This document shows positions 4,672 to 16,306 of a stretch of 64,000 bases of DNA, in pieces. The notes under the pieces are model-generated. The model was not told the origin of the DNA, searched no databases, and worked only from the letters and a program-made list of their open reading frames with translations. Both the position numbers and the translations under genes were made by a program. How positions within the stretch are numbered: position 1 is the stretch's first letter; every line of letters begins with the position of its first letter. The DNA lies in the IMG/VR virus record IMGVR_UViG_3300031418_000001; one strand, written 5' to 3'. This stretch comes from a virus. Its lineage: Duplodnaviria; Heunggongvirae; Uroviricota; Caudoviricetes.

Positions 4672-5025
4672 ATGAAAGGAGTCATCGGATTATTATATTG
4701 TACTGAACTTAATGAGTTCATTGATACAAGTACAAATGATAAAACATTCAGTACTGATGAAATTACAGTTAAAATATATAAGAACAAGAATGGTGATCAA
4801 TGTATTGATTATACTATCATGATCATATACACCATTACTGTCAATTTAAATAAAAATAGTACCAAAATTAAGGGTTCTTATAATAACTGTTATATGGAAT
4901 TGCCATATGATTGTGAAGATAGAAATGAATTCTTCCAGTTAAATTGTTATTATGATTTCCATGATTTTAAGTTTGAAGATTTAATTAAAATACAGGAATG
5001 GACAAAGTACTTCCTGACTTTATAA
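4672..5025 (+). CDS. hypothetical protein, C-terminal motif family
   Basis: motif PYDCEDRNEFFQLNCYYDFHDFKFEDL. Confidence 0.75.
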   Translation: MKGVIGLLYCTELNEFIDTSTNDKTFSTDEITVKIYKNKNGDQCIDYTIMIIYTITVNLNKNSTKIKGSYNNCYMELPYDCEDRNEFFQLNCYYDFHDFKFEDLIKIQEWTKYFLTL

Positions 5026-5032
5026 GTACAAT

Positions 5033-5251
5033 GGGGCATGTTCCAAGAGGGTCGATTGGGCGAATAAACTATGAACGTCGCTGGCGTAAAAGCCGTCTGT
5101 TAACTGAATCACTGAATGTCTCAGAAGCACCTATAGCGGCCTGACAACAGGCGGGGAGAAACAAGCAAGGGAAGCGTAGTCTAAGGTGAGGAAGGCGTAT
5201 AGCGAGAGTTATACGTAGCAGAAAGTACGGGTTCGAATCCCGTATGCTCCA
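5033..5251 (+). ncRNA. ssrA: tmRNA (minimal, 219 nt), tag (A)ESLNVSEAPIAA
   Basis: GGGGCAT/ATGCTCC acceptor stem with G3.U70 and A73; 3' T arm ACGGG-TTCGAAT-CCCGT; pk1-like pseudoknot; TAACT-GAA resume context; tag frame 5106-5144 ending IAA-stop in a hairpin. Confidence 0.85.
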
Positions 5252-5265
5252 CAAAAGGAATAACA

Positions 5266-5511
5266 ATGAAATACGAAACTGATATTAAAGTTACACGCAT
5301 TAATAAAAGATACCATGCAAGGTTATTTGTTAATGGTAATCTTTATGATGAAATGGCATGTGAATACCGTACTGATATAGGGTTTATTTGTCGTCAGATG
5401 TTACGTAATGCTGATAAAATGGGTATATTTAATGCACATACTGAATCAGCACGTAAACGTATTACTACTTCTAACACTCATGGTAAAATCTGGTACAGGA
5501 ATAAGTTATGA
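5266..5511 (+). CDS. hypothetical protein
   Basis: AAGGA RBS. Confidence 0.7.
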   Translation: MKYETDIKVTRINKRYHARLFVNGNLYDEMACEYRTDIGFICRQMLRNADKMGIFNAHTESARKRITTSNTHGKIWYRNKL

Positions 5512-7040: not shown

Positions 7041-7562
7041 ATGTCAAAAGTTAGTAAAATTAATAGTATATCAACAACTGAATTTAAAACAATTGTTGAA
7101 TCTTGTTTCTCTATAAGAGAAATTGTCGAGAAAATGGGATTTTCAAGACAGAGTGGAAGTATGGCAATTAAAGTTAAAGAGAGAATTGCCAAAGAACAAA
7201 TAGACACTTCACATTTTTTAGGTAGATTGTCTGTAAAAGGAAAACATATCCGTATTGAAATGGAAGATATATTAGTAAAGGACTCAACTTATACTAATAT
7301 ATACATGCTTAAAAAAAGACTCGTAAATGATAAACTTCTTAAGTATGAGTGTCAACTGTGTAAAAATGATGGTACATGGAATGGTCAAAAATTAACTTTA
7401 CAACTCGATCATATAAATGGAGATCATAAAGATCATAGATTGGTCAATCTAAGGTTTTTATGCCCAAACTGTCATTCACAAACTGAAACTTTCTCAGGTA
7501 GAAATGTTAAAAAATACCCTGAAGTTATCACACTGGTAGGTAGGCCACCCATTATCCAGTGA
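7041..7562 (+). CDS. HNH homing endonuclease
   Basis: CQLC...LQLDHINGDHKDHRLVNLRFLCPNCHSQT. Confidence 0.9.
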   Translation: MSKVSKINSISTTEFKTIVESCFSIREIVEKMGFSRQSGSMAIKVKERIAKEQIDTSHFLGRLSVKGKHIRIEMEDILVKDSTYTNIYMLKKRLVNDKLLKYECQLCKNDGTWNGQKLTLQLDHINGDHKDHRLVNLRFLCPNCHSQTETFSGRNVKKYPEVITLVGRPPIIQ

Positions 7563-7681
7563 TGCGGAACGATTAATTAGTATAACGATAACTATAGAGG
7601 TATAGTGCACACCGGTTCAGGTACTATATTGATATAGAGACAATAGTACTATGAAGGTGGTTCGAATCCACACTTCGGGGC
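7517..7681 (+). ncRNA. tRNA-ended structured RNA (unknown)
   Basis: CCCTGAAGT/ACTTCGGGG terminal helix; 3' T arm GTGG-TTCGAAT-CCAC; internal hairpins. Confidence 0.5.
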
Positions 7682-7942: not shown

Positions 7943-7961
7943 CAAATATAAGTACAATATT

Positions 7962-9839: not shown

Positions 9840-10009
9840 CAAAAATAAGTACTTAGATCCGTATTAAGTACTAAAGAAATACTTTTGTATCAAGCTGTTA
9901 TGAGTCGTGTAGCTTGTAAAATTATATAAGACGATCCGCGATGCACCTTGTATGGGTCAATCCGTAATGGTTAAATACATACAGTACTGAGAGCGGCAGT
10001 ACACAATAA

Positions 10010-10092: not shown

Positions 10093-10101
10093 CAAATACT
10101 A

Positions 10102-10417: not shown

Positions 10418-10427
10418 ATAAAAGTTT

Positions 10428-10592
10428 TGAGTACTTGTGTTCGCTTAGTCGCAGAGAATTACACTGATTCACGGTAATAGCAGTCGGCACGGCAACCATA
10501 AGCCCTGGCAATATAGTACTTAATAGTGTTGTACTATATCAAGAGCAGTCTATGATGTGGGTTCGAATCCCAACCAGTGACACAAGTGCCCA
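10428..10592 (+). ncRNA. structured RNA with internal T arm (unknown)
   Basis: GTACTTGTGT/ACACAAGTGC closing helix; TGGG-TTCGAAT-CCCA; no ORF. Confidence 0.45.
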
Positions 10593-10687
10593 AATATTAG
10601 TACTCTTAGGTGAAGACGCAGTAGGAAGTTAAAGCCCGTCATAATCTGATAGAAGTAATCTAAGAGTACTAATATTTAAAAACTTAT

Positions 10688-10996: not shown

Positions 10997-11152
10997 ATAA
11001 ACCAGATTTTAGTATTCATGATATGCTTGGTGAGATTAAACCATTTTCAAGAGAAGACCTGGAAATCTTACGTACTCATGAAGAAATGCATCGTCTGATG
11101 CAATTGGCAAAACGTTTCCCTGTGGAAATGAAGAAAAAGAATTAAGTACTAT

Positions 11153-11225: not shown

Positions 11226-11413
11226 CAAACAGAACGAATGTATCCAGCACTGATAAAACTTATAGTGTGGTGTAGTGAACCCGTGTATGCAGTGTAGCTT
11301 TAATATAATTAAGCAGTTACGTTTCCATTGCTTAGAGATCACACCTCTAAGTACTCACTATGGATAAAAAAAGCAGTACTAATATCTTTGGATAGGGTGT
11401 TAGTACTAACTTT

Positions 11414-11486: not shown

Positions 11487-11514
11487 CAAACTATAATAAA
11501 TTGAGTACCAAATA

Positions 11515-16287: not shown

Positions 16288-16306
16288 CAAATAATAAGGA
16301 CATATT

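What the first reader, a model, noticed from the sequence alone, without database searches (positions are those of the whole stretch)
5033..5251. Minimal phage tmRNA (219 nt) with its own degradation tag
Seen: an Ala-type acceptor stem (G3.U70, A73), a T arm, and TCGA in the D-loop analogue. A pk1-like fold (ACGTC/GGCGT with GCT/AGC) is followed by TAACT and then GAA TCA CTG AAT GTC TCA GAA GCA CCT ATA GCG GCC TGA (ESLNVSEAPIAA*), with the stop in the hairpin GCCTG-ACAA-CAGGC. Established: E. coli tmRNA is about 360 nt and its tag ends LAA for ClpXP, and tmRNAs are known in some phages such as mycobacteriophages. Here only about 80 nt separate the stop from the T arm, so most of pk2-pk4 is missing, and the tag lacks the NDENY SspB-binding part. 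Inference: a stripped-down ribosome-rescue RNA that replaces or competes with host ssrA.
Basis: partly seen in the sequence, partly recalled or inferred. Interest (0 to 1): 0.78.

Follow-up and report, generated by a model that had tools for sequence, protein, structure and literature searches.

The report
Compact tmRNA-like RNA gene in jumbo phage
A giant phage carries a real, strongly conserved 219-base RNA gene built like a shrunken bacterial ribosome-rescue RNA (tmRNA), with an alanine-type tRNA end and a short tag-like reading frame, but standard tmRNA detectors reject it and tagging is unproven.

Summary
Window 5033-5251 (+) has a 7-bp Ala-type acceptor stem (G3.U70, A73), a perfect T arm, a UCGA-containing D-loop analogue, a pk1-like motif, and a 12-codon frame (5106-5144) ending Ala-Ala-UGA inside a hairpin.

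It is a real RNA gene:
- It is 96.3% identical between phage variants whose flanks are 72-94% identical.
- It has one compensatory acceptor pair.
- It is kept where the upstream ORF is lost.
- It shares 5' and 3' flank signatures with the phage's tRNAs.

A canonical tag-like frame occurs in only 0.1-0.55% of shuffled interiors (1.3% without the G-start rule).

Membership in tmRNA is not shown:
- ARAGORN defaults and Rfam RF00023 fail (10.8 of 47 bits).
- The TLD is atypical (16-nt D region; AGU instead of the conserved GAC).
- No regular helix 2 can be drawn.
- One natural variant changes the proposed resume codon (GAA to AAA).
- Only four variants, no more than 4% diverged, exist, and no SmpB was found.

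Best reading (about 45%): a pseudoknot-poor, compact tagging tmRNA that uses host SmpB. Rivals: a non-tagging TLD decoy, or a long alanine-type tRNA-shaped RNA. Earlier scan notes judged similar-sized RNAs in other large phages 'not tmRNA'.

The parts
5023..5029 (+). TAAGTAC motif ending 4 nt before the mature 5' end
   Evidence: The same motif lies just upstream of tRNA-Arg, Phe and Ile. It occurs 144 times in the window against about 15 expected. It is part of a genome-wide AGTACT excess, so its role (promoter or otherwise) is not established.
5033..5039 (+). 5' strand of the acceptor stem (GGGGCAU; G3 of the G3.U70 pair)
   Evidence: Pairs with 5244-5250. The C5-G214 pair changes to U5-A214 in three variants. 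Conservation between variants begins exactly at G1.
5040..5060 (+). D-loop analogue with GG and UCGA
   Evidence: ARAGORN at -ps80 assigns 1-31 as the 5' tRNA domain. Variable positions 10 and 17 lie here. Its 16 nt before the UCGA-U position exceed the 10-13 nt reported for tmRNAs (PMC1168896). A 3-4 bp D-stem (CCA/UGG) is also possible.
5069..5073 (+). Possible helix-2 5' strand (CUAUG, would pair with 5214-5218)
   Evidence: Complementarity only. It is invariant in all variants, so it is neither supported nor refuted. It competes with the base of the 5195-5216 hairpin.
5075..5093 (+). pk1-like motif (ACGUC/GGCGU plus GCU/AGC), or alternatively a simple hairpin UGGC-GUAAAA-GCCG (5082-5095)
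   Evidence: C53 to U keeps a wobble pair in either model, and A43 to U breaks the terminal pair. CGUAAAAGCCG resembles the 3' half of E. coli pk1, but the similarity is not significant against shuffles.
5094..5105 (+). 12-nt linker upstream of the proposed resume codon, with U-5, A-4, A-3 (5101-5103) and U/C at -1
   Evidence: Matches the natural consensus described in PMC2481249. The -1 base toggles U/C among variants.
5106..5144 (+). Tag-like reading frame GAA...GCG GCC UGA, reading (A)ESLNVSEAPIAA*
   Evidence: It is the only frame in the interior that meets the canonical tag criteria; 0.55% of shuffles do so, or 0.10% with the stop in a hairpin. Changes within it: AAU to AAC is synonymous; GAA to AAA occurs in variant V4. 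Positions 86-112 are invariant.
5139..5152 (+). Helix-5-like hairpin GCCUG-ACAA-CAGGC holding the UGA stop
   Evidence: Present in all folds. Same layout as E. coli GCAG-CUUAAUAAC-CUGC. Invariant.
5153..5194 (+). Purine-rich, nearly invariant linker in place of PK2-PK4, holding ARAGORN's alternative frame (5153-5179, GEKQAREA*) and Shine-Dalgarno-like runs
   Evidence: One change (A131 to C) would be Gln to Pro in the alternative frame. AGGUG (5184-5188) can pair with CACCU (5128-5132).
5195..5216 (+). 9-bp hairpin capped by a GAGA (GNRA) tetraloop
   Evidence: Constrained fold. G163.U184 becomes A-U in variant V2.
5219..5226 (+). Junction CAGAAAGU before the T stem; AGU stands where tmRNAs have the conserved GAC
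   Evidence: One search compared with PMC1168896 section 11. Invariant in all variants.
5227..5243 (+). T arm ACGGG-UUCGAAU-CCCGU
   Evidence: RF00023 positions 347-363, 10.8 bits. Identical to the T arm of bacterial tRNA-Ala(GGC) genes and of a TLD-only phage element.
5244..5251 (+). 3' strand of the acceptor stem (AUGCUCC) plus discriminator A73
   Evidence: It is followed by CAAA (5252-5255), the same trailer as six CCA-less tRNAs of this cluster.

Best explanation
It is a compact, pseudoknot-poor tmRNA: a one-piece ribosome-rescue RNA reduced to a tRNA-like domain, a pk1-like hairpin or pseudoknot, a 12-codon tag frame whose stop sits in a helix-5-like hairpin, a purine-rich linker and one GNRA hairpin. 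Proposed mechanism, with status: (1) It is transcribed with the phage tRNA cluster and cut out like a tRNA, by RNase P at G5033 and 3' trimming to A5251, followed by CCA addition. Shared flank signatures are shown; the processing is inferred. (2) Host AlaRS charges it through G3.U70 and A73 (inferred from established identity rules). [quoted passage not shown] (4) Translation resumes at GAA 5106, positioned by U-5/A-4/A-3, and adds (A)ESLNVSEAPIAA before stopping at UGA 5142-5144 (inferred). (5) This releases the ribosome and leaves a C-terminal ...IAA end resembling the ...LAA degradation signal, without the SspB-binding part (inferred). The likely benefit is to keep ribosomes free during a long jumbo-phage infection, or when defence nucleases cut mRNAs and tRNAs.
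For: It is a real, selected RNA gene. The element is 96.3% identical against 72-94% for neighbouring ORFs, and as conserved as tRNA-Glu, Cys and Tyr. It has a compensatory acceptor pair. It is retained where the upstream ORF is absent. Its G+C is 51% against 35.5% for the window, and its flanks are tRNA-like. It has alanine identity and a T arm. The reverse strand and two other long RNAs of the phage give none. The upstream context matches the natural consensus, and the -1 base toggles only between the two favoured bases (PMC2481249). One of the two changes inside the frame is synonymous. The landmarks are collinear with E. coli ssrA: TLD, the 3' half of pk1, and Ala-Ala codons forming the 5' strand of helix 5 with the stop at the loop. 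PK2-PK4 are replaceable, pk1 can be a simple hairpin, and pseudoknot-poor two-piece tmRNAs tag normally (PMC3968760). Phage tmRNAs exist (PMC4131195, PMC7162821, PMC11915505).
Against: ARAGORN calls no tmRNA down to 90% thresholds. The call at 80% is worthless, because there were 54 such calls in about 300 kb, and it picks another frame. RF00023 aligns only the T arm (10.8 of 47 bits). The TLD is atypical: 16 nt between helix 1 and the helix-2a position (10-13 nt known), U for the conserved C21, AGU for the conserved GAC before the T stem, and no regular helix 2a (against PMC1168896). Variant V4, seen in several samples, has AAA instead of GAA at the proposed resume codon, whereas natural resume codons are mostly Ala and sometimes Gly (PMC3968760). 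Positions 86-213, including the non-coding purine tract, are more constrained than the start of the frame, so the constraint is not simply on a peptide. Interior similarity to E. coli ssrA is not significant. The interior fold cannot be settled with four near-identical variants. No SmpB was found in the window or in five related jumbo phages. Relatives at 75% identity or less lack the element.
Confidence: 0.45

Rival explanations
1. A non-tagging tmRNA derivative or decoy. The RNA keeps the alanine-type tRNA-like end and engages AlaRS, SmpB, EF-Tu or stalled ribosomes, but does not template a tag. It would titrate or redirect the host rescue system, as proposed for the TLD-only RNA of mycobacteriophage DS6A, and the conserved interior would serve folding, stability or another binding partner.
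For: TLD-only phage RNAs are known and inhibit tmRNA (PMC4131195, PMC11915505), and one such element turned up here in an IMG/VR phage tRNA array (L010). The resume codon is not conserved. The TLD and helix 2 are non-canonical (against PMC1168896). tmRNA models fail. The strongest constraint lies downstream of the start of the frame.
Against: A decoy needs only about 60-110 nt, yet all 219 nt are under strong purifying selection. A frame with a canonical context, an Ala-Ala-stop end and a stop-in-hairpin layout is unlikely by chance (0.1-0.55%). The same TLD deviations that argue against tagging also argue against tight SmpB binding.
Confidence: 0.25
2. A long alanine-type tRNA-shaped structured RNA unrelated to trans-translation. 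This would be one more of the tRNA mimics that this and other large phages place in their tRNA arrays, for example as a decoy or partner for RNA-repair or Ro60-like proteins, or for anticodon-nuclease defences. The tag-like frame would be coincidental.
For: Earlier scan notes (unchecked AI notes) report 209-258-nt Ala-type RNAs in other large phages that lacked conserved tags. This phage carries many other tRNA-like RNAs. A tRNA-style D arm (CCA/UGG with A14, R15, GG and A21 analogues) can be drawn. MFE-type model B, with a closing helix 64-69/185-190, a GNRA hairpin and CACCU/AGGUG pairing, is 100% compatible with all variants. Positions 86-213 are nearly invariant.
Against: The interior is not unusually stable (z = -1.4) and is largely purine-rich single strand. 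The tag-like frame statistics and the tmRNA-like order of landmarks would have to be coincidence. The element shares nothing but the T loop with the phage's other long T-arm RNAs. The small helix 72-75/88-91 of the MFE fold is broken by two natural substitutions.
Confidence: 0.22
3. A small protein gene: the 48-aa ORF 4998-5144, which metagenome gene callers annotated across the 5' half of the element.
For: The ORF is open from ATG 4998 and was called on several contigs.
Against: Its start and first 12 codons are absent in variants L046 and L054, where no such gene is called, yet the element is kept. No homologue exists among 5.8 billion proteins other than itself. Conservation extends 107 nt past its stop, and the substitutions pair up as RNA helices.
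Confidence: 0.02

Closest known systems
Standard one-piece tmRNA (SsrA; Rfam RF00023), e.g. E. coli ssrA, 363 nt
   Same: A 7-bp acceptor stem with G1-C, G2-C, G3.U and discriminator A. A 5-bp T stem with a UUCGAAU loop. UCGA in the D-loop analogue. The order TLD, pk1-like element, about 12-nt linker, short frame ending Ala-Ala-stop, and the stop in a hairpin formed by the last codons.
   Different: 219 nt against about 350 typical and 250 for the shortest complete tmRNA in Burks et al. 2005 (PMC1168896). No PK2-PK4. No regular helix 2. A longer D region. U and AGU in place of the conserved C21 and GAC. A Glu/Lys resume codon rather than Ala/Gly. No encoded CCA. It scores 10.8 bits against a 47-bit gathering score.
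Phage-encoded tmRNAs (mycobacteriophages Bxz1, Catera and others; Bacillus phage G; huge phages)
   Same: A phage-borne ssrA-type gene in a genome rich in tRNAs and translation functions (PMC4131195, PMC7162821, PMC11915505).
   Different: Those were found by ARAGORN or tmRNA models, whereas this one is invisible to both at normal thresholds. blastn found no similar sequence among 50,697 phage records.
TLD-only ('Standard, no CDS') tmRNA of mycobacteriophage DS6A and similar mini-tmRNAs
   Same: An alanine-type acceptor plus T arm in a phage. The L010 element found here shares the identical 25-nt 3' end.
   Different: Those are about 65-110 nt with no interior, and L010 keeps the canonical UCGAC and GGAC motifs. 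This element has a conserved 165-nt interior with a tag-like frame, and lacks those two motifs.
Pseudoknot-reduced tmRNAs (two-piece alpha-proteobacterial and cyanobacterial forms; plastid forms lacking pk3/pk4)
   Same: They show that tagging does not need the full pseudoknot ring (PMC3968760, PMC1168896).
   Different: Those retain helix 2 and canonical TLD motifs and are recognised by Rfam models; this one is one-piece and more reduced.
Long alanine-type tRNA-shaped RNAs of large phages and megaplasmids
   Same: Size (about 210-260 nt), Ala-type ends, and a location in tRNA arrays of large phages.
   Different: Those notes report a large folded arm and no conserved tag. Here the interior is weakly structured and holds a canonical-looking tag frame. 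No sequence relationship could be tested (2 of 68 shared words).

Membership tests
tmRNA (SsrA, RF00023) | 7-bp acceptor stem with G3.U70 and discriminator A73 (alanine identity) | tested here: met
   GGGGCAU/AUGCUCC plus A. The 5-214 pair covaries. The closing pair is U7-A rather than the usual G-C, an exception also noted for Trichodesmium (PMC1168896).
tmRNA (SsrA, RF00023) | T arm (helix 12) with a tRNA-like T loop | tested here: met
   RF00023 positions 347-363 align perfectly.
tmRNA (SsrA, RF00023) | Reduced, stemless D-loop of 10-13 nt with conserved ...UCGAC, and a conserved GAC before helix 12 | tested here: not met
   UCGA is present, but it is followed by U. There are 16 nt between helix 1 and that position. 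AGU replaces GAC (5224-5226). A 3-4-bp D stem is possible (against PMC1168896 section 11).
tmRNA (SsrA, RF00023) | Helix 2 (about 8 supported pairs in 2a) joining the TLD to the pseudoknot ring | tested here: not met
   Only CUAUG/CGUAG (5 bp, 9 nt away from the TLD) or UCUGUU/AGCAGA can be drawn. Both are invariant, so they have no comparative support.
tmRNA (SsrA, RF00023) | pk1 (or a stable hairpin) shortly upstream of the tag frame | tested here: inconclusive
   Either a 5-bp stem with a 3-nt loop pairing downstream, or a 4-bp hairpin. The changes seen are wobble-compatible with both.
tmRNA (SsrA, RF00023) | Short internal frame with U-5/A-4/R-3 context, ending in Ala-Ala-stop, with the stop in helix 5 | tested here: met
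   Frame 5106-5144. However, the resume codon is GAA/AAA, not Ala/Gly, and its first base varies.
tmRNA (SsrA, RF00023) | Conservation of the tag frame in diverged homologues | tested here: inconclusive
   Only four variants, no more than 4% diverged. No further homologue was found in the phage, viral, metagenome or genome collections.
tmRNA (SsrA, RF00023) | Reaches the Rfam gathering score or an ARAGORN default call | tested here: not met
   10.8 of 47 bits. No ARAGORN tmRNA call at default through 90% thresholds.
tmRNA (SsrA, RF00023) | Alanylation, SmpB binding and trans-translation activity | not testable with these tools
   These need biochemistry or genetics. No SmpB gene was found in the window or in five related phages.
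TLD-only (CDS-less) phage mini-tmRNA, DS6A type | Little more than acceptor stem, D-loop analogue and T arm, with no interior or tag frame | tested here: not met
   A 165-nt conserved interior with a tag-like frame.
Canonical tRNA-Ala (RF00005) | Cloverleaf with an anticodon arm; reaches the tRNA gathering score | tested here: not met
   No RF00005 hit. ARAGORN's 'tRNA-???' with a 4-base anticodon at 5171-5252 uses a poorly paired acceptor.

The most novel reading that the evidence does not exclude
This is a natural, working minimal one-piece tmRNA of 219 nt. It would have a divergent tRNA-like domain, a miniature pk1, a 12-codon tag frame and helix 5, but no PK2-PK4 and no regular helix 2. 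It would be charged by host AlaRS and delivered by host SmpB, so that a jumbo phage runs its own ribosome-rescue and tagging channel with a tag, (A)ESLNVSEAPIAA, different from the host's. That would define nature's lower limit for trans-translation and show that current tmRNA detectors miss a class of phage tmRNAs.
Probability: 0.4. Interest if true: 0.72.

Novelty: new variant of a known kind. Interest (0 to 1): 0.52.

Why it matters
If it tags, it would be shorter than the shortest complete tmRNA (250 nt) in the 2005 comparative set. It would be a natural counterpart of the laboratory finding that PK2-PK4, and even pk1, are replaceable. It would also show that a phage can install its own rescue and tagging RNA that annotation pipelines (ARAGORN, Rfam) do not see, so phage tmRNAs may be under-counted. 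If it does not tag, it is a well-conserved example of the alanine-type tRNA-like RNAs that large phages keep in their tRNA arrays and whose roles are unknown. In either case it is a compact, testable RNA: 219 nt with clear predictions for charging, SmpB binding and tag detection.

Tried and rejected
1. ARAGORN with relaxed thresholds. At -ps80 it calls a tmRNA at 5033-5252 with tag GEKQAREA*. The same setting makes 54 calls in about 300 kb, 10 of them in the window, so the call is rejected as evidence. That alternative frame lacks an Ala-Ala end and takes a Gln-to-Pro change in variant V3.
2. Rfam in permissive mode, on 500 nt and on the exact element: only the T arm aligns.
3. Homologue hunts that found nothing useful:
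- blastn against 50,697 phage records.
- Five related jumbo-phage genomes searched by BLAST, RF00023 and my own covariance model R1. Only tRNAs matched, and one 232-nt hit was tRNA-Asn plus coding DNA.
- IMG/VR exact or degenerate patterns, five scans. The 25-nt 3' end hit only tRNA-Ala genes, att-like fragments and one TLD-only element.
- A JGI metagenome TLD-only gapped pattern: 8 loci, all tRNA-Asp false positives.
- Genome contigs, two scans, no hits.
- Protein search with the spurious 48-aa translation: only itself.
- The upstream ORF is an ORFan.
- Relatives whose downstream ORF is 75% or 57% identical lack the element.
4. Sequence homology of the interior to E. coli ssrA: not significant against shuffles.
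5. SmpB: tblastn of E. coli SmpB on the window gives E = 0.24, and PF01668 is absent from five relatives. The 349-kb contig itself could not be searched.
6. Covariation support for either interior fold: none is possible with these data.
7. Kinship with the phage's other long T-arm RNAs (7517-7680, 10426-10594): none beyond the T loop.
8. Calling TAAGTAC a promoter: not justified, because it belongs to a genome-wide AGTACT excess.
9. The tmRNA database supplement held no phage length data.

Full report
**What is there.** Window 5033-5251 (+) lies in a 240-nt gap between two small ORFs (4672-5025 and 5266-5511), inside a tRNA-rich region with 17 tRNAs in the first 18 kb. The window comes from a jumbo phage distantly related to GAP32, CBB, BF, XbC2 and Kaldavass.

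- A 7-bp acceptor stem, GGGGCAU/AUGCUCC, with G3.U70 and discriminator A.
- A perfect T arm at 5227-5243.
- UCGA in the D-loop analogue.
- pk1-like complementarities at 5075-5093.
- The frame GAA...GCG GCC UGA at 5106-5144, reading ESLNVSEAPIAA*.
- The stop inside the hairpin GCCUG-ACAA-CAGGC (5139-5152).
- 82 nt between the stop and the T arm.

CCA is not encoded.

**Is it a real gene?** Yes. The same element is 100% identical on 14 metagenome contigs from ENA, JGI and Logan, the longest of about 349 kb. Three diverged variants exist (L046, L054, L052/L053), each with 8 substitutions, or 96.3% identity.

In the same genome pair, neighbouring ORFs are 72-94% identical and several tRNAs are 77-83% identical. 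Only tRNA-Glu, Cys and Tyr are as conserved as the element. The probability of 8 or fewer changes at the flank rate is about 1e-5 or lower.

Further points:
- In L046 and L054 the upstream 117-aa ORF is missing, but the element is kept, and conservation starts exactly at G1.
- C5-G214 changes to U5-A214, a compensatory change. C53 to U and G163 to A keep pairing.
- G+C is 51%, against 35.5% for the window and 53% for its tRNAs.
- The 5' flank (TAAGTAC, then 3 nt) and the 3' trailer (discriminator plus CAAA) are those of this phage's genuine tRNAs. This suggests tRNA-type processing and CCA addition.
- The 48-aa ORF that gene callers drew over the 5' half is not conserved and has no homologue.

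**Does it qualify as tmRNA by the standard tools?** No.
- ARAGORN calls only a nonsensical 'tRNA-???' at 5171-5252, and no tmRNA at default through 90% thresholds.
- At 80% it recognises 5' and 3' tRNA domains at exactly these ends, but that setting yields 54 calls in about 300 kb, so it carries no weight. It also picks a different frame, GEKQAREA*.
- Rfam RF00023 aligns only the T arm: 10.8 bits against a gathering score of 47.

Measured against the comparative description of the TLD (PMC1168896, section 11), the element is atypical:
- 16 nt instead of 10-13 nt between helix 1 and the helix-2a position.
- U where C21 is conserved.
- AGU where GAC precedes helix 12.
- No regular helix 2a.

**The tag frame.** Published rules describe natural tmRNAs as follows. 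A at -4 is nearly invariant. U at -5 is highly conserved. -3 is a purine. C or U is favoured at -1 (PMC2481249). Tags have 8-35 residues, and helix 5 carries the stop (PMC3968760). That tags commonly end in Ala-Ala is my own knowledge.

I coded these rules as: a G-start codon, U-A-R at -5 to -3, 6-30 codons, and Ala-Ala-stop. I then scanned the interior (29-194). Results:

| Criterion | Frequency in 40,000 dinucleotide shuffles |
|---|---|
| Strict | 0.55% |
| Strict, with the stop in a hairpin of 5 bp or more | 0.10% |
| Without the G-start rule | 1.3% |
| Without the G-start rule, with hairpin | 0.2% |

- The reverse strand and two other long RNAs of the phage give no hit.
- Among the variants, the -1 base toggles between U and C, the two favoured bases, and AAU to AAC is synonymous.
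- Variant V4, seen in several samples, has AAA for GAA at the proposed resume codon. That is unusual, since natural resume codons are mostly Ala and sometimes Gly.
- Any in-frame resume point would still give the same ...APIAA end.
- Positions 86-213 are almost invariant, including the non-coding purine tract, so the constraint acts on the RNA and not only on a peptide.

**Comparison with E. coli ssrA** (fetched as L067). The landmarks are collinear: the 5' TLD, CGUAAAAGCCG (the 3' half of pk1), and the last two Ala codons forming the 5' strand of helix 5 with the stop at the loop. The interior similarity is not significant against shuffles (z = 0.9 and -0.3). The resemblance is therefore architectural and is not demonstrated homology.

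**Interior fold.** With the acceptor and T arm forced, the fold contains the stop hairpin, a 9-bp hairpin with a GAGA tetraloop (5195-5216), a possible closing helix 64-69/185-190, and CACCU/AGGUG pairing. A tmRNA-style model is equally compatible: helix 2 at 37-41/182-186, pk1, H5 and a 6-bp hairpin. The four variants cannot discriminate between the two. Overall stability is unremarkable (z = -1.4), as expected if much of the interior is single-stranded.

**Homologues.** I found none beyond this narrow lineage. Searches covered 50,697 phage records, five whole related genomes (by BLAST, RF00023 and my own model R1), IMG/VR, JGI metagenomes and 185,579 species genomes. Phages whose downstream ORF is 75% or 57% identical lack the element at this position. 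All gapped-pattern hits were ordinary tRNAs.

No SmpB gene is in the window or in the five relatives. The rest of this genome could not be searched.

**What is known.** Phage tmRNAs are established: mycobacteriophages, Bacillus phage G, huge phages, and 79 unique phage sequences in the 2025 database. So are TLD-only forms, which inhibit tmRNA (PMC4131195, PMC7162821, PMC11915505). PK2-PK4 are replaceable and pk1 can be a hairpin (PMC3968760). The shortest complete tmRNA in the 2005 comparative set was 250 nt (PMC1168896).

Earlier notes of this scan are unchecked AI notes. They describe several 209-258-nt alanine-type RNAs in other large phages that were judged 'not tmRNA', and the same stretch was noted twice in overlapping windows. 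I tested that rival reading here. It is not excluded, but this element differs in having a canonical-looking tag frame and a weakly structured interior.

**Verdict.**
- Most likely (about 0.45): a compact, pseudoknot-poor tagging tmRNA that depends on host AlaRS and SmpB.
- About 0.25: a non-tagging tmRNA-derived decoy.
- About 0.22: an alanine-type tRNA-shaped RNA with another role.

Formal membership in RF00023 is not met on three tested features: TLD motifs, helix 2 and model score. I therefore file it as a new variant of a known kind, and it works like a tmRNA only by inference.

Noticed in passing
L010:1394-1480 (minus strand; IMG/VR contig IMGVR_UViG_3300033463_000610): An element of about 80-85 nt made only of a tmRNA tRNA-like domain (GGGGCAUUGAUGGGUAUCGAC...GUAGGAC, T arm, AUGCUCCACCA), lying next to an array of 14 tRNA genes. 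It keeps the canonical UCGAC and GGAC motifs and shares the identical 25-nt 3' end with the window's element. It looks like a DS6A-type TLD-only mini-tmRNA.
   Followed up: partly
window, whole (e.g. 1941-1947, 5023-5029, 11143-11149): TAAGTAC occurs 144 times against about 15 expected. Its strand follows the local gene direction, and it often lies a few bases upstream of tRNA 5' ends. It overlaps the genome-wide AGTACT palindrome excess noted earlier, so whether it is a promoter element is open.
   Followed up: partly
window 7943-7947, 9840-9844, 10093-10097, 11226-11230, 11487-11491, 16288-16292, 5251-5255: Six tRNAs that lack an encoded CCA (Trp, Asn, Gly, Phe, Lys, Pro) and the 219-nt element all carry the same trailer, discriminator plus CAAA. 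Other tRNAs of the cluster encode CCA. This suggests a shared 3'-processing or CCA-addition signal.
   Followed up: no
window 4672-5025: The 117-aa ORF just upstream of the element is an ORFan, with no homologue among 5.8 billion proteins other than itself. It is present in some variants of this phage (window, L052) and absent in others (L046, L054).
   Followed up: partly
window 5153-5194 and 5128-5132: The purine-rich tract of the element contains Shine-Dalgarno-like runs (GGGGAG, UAAGGUGAGGAAGG). The tag frame contains CACCU, identical to the anti-SD core and complementary to AGGUG in the tract. This may be self-pairing or ribosome docking; it was not tested.
   Followed up: no
window 7517-7680 and 10426-10594: Two other long (about 165 nt) RNAs end in a GGUUCGAAUCC T arm with non-alanine acceptor-like stems. 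They resemble each other weakly and share nothing but the T loop with the 219-nt element.
   Followed up: partly
window 5136-5138 (AUA codon of the tag frame): The proposed tag uses AUA (Ile), a codon that is rare in enterobacteria. Earlier notes say this phage carries its own AUA-reading tRNA-Ile2 (split by a group I intron) just outside the window.
   Followed up: no
L006, L008, L011 (IMG/VR contigs): The 26-nt 3' end of a tRNA-Ala/tmRNA-type gene (T arm plus AUGCUCCA) sits directly after an ORF end, in an att-site-like arrangement. These are probably attachment-site remnants of temperate phages that integrate into such a gene.
   Followed up: no
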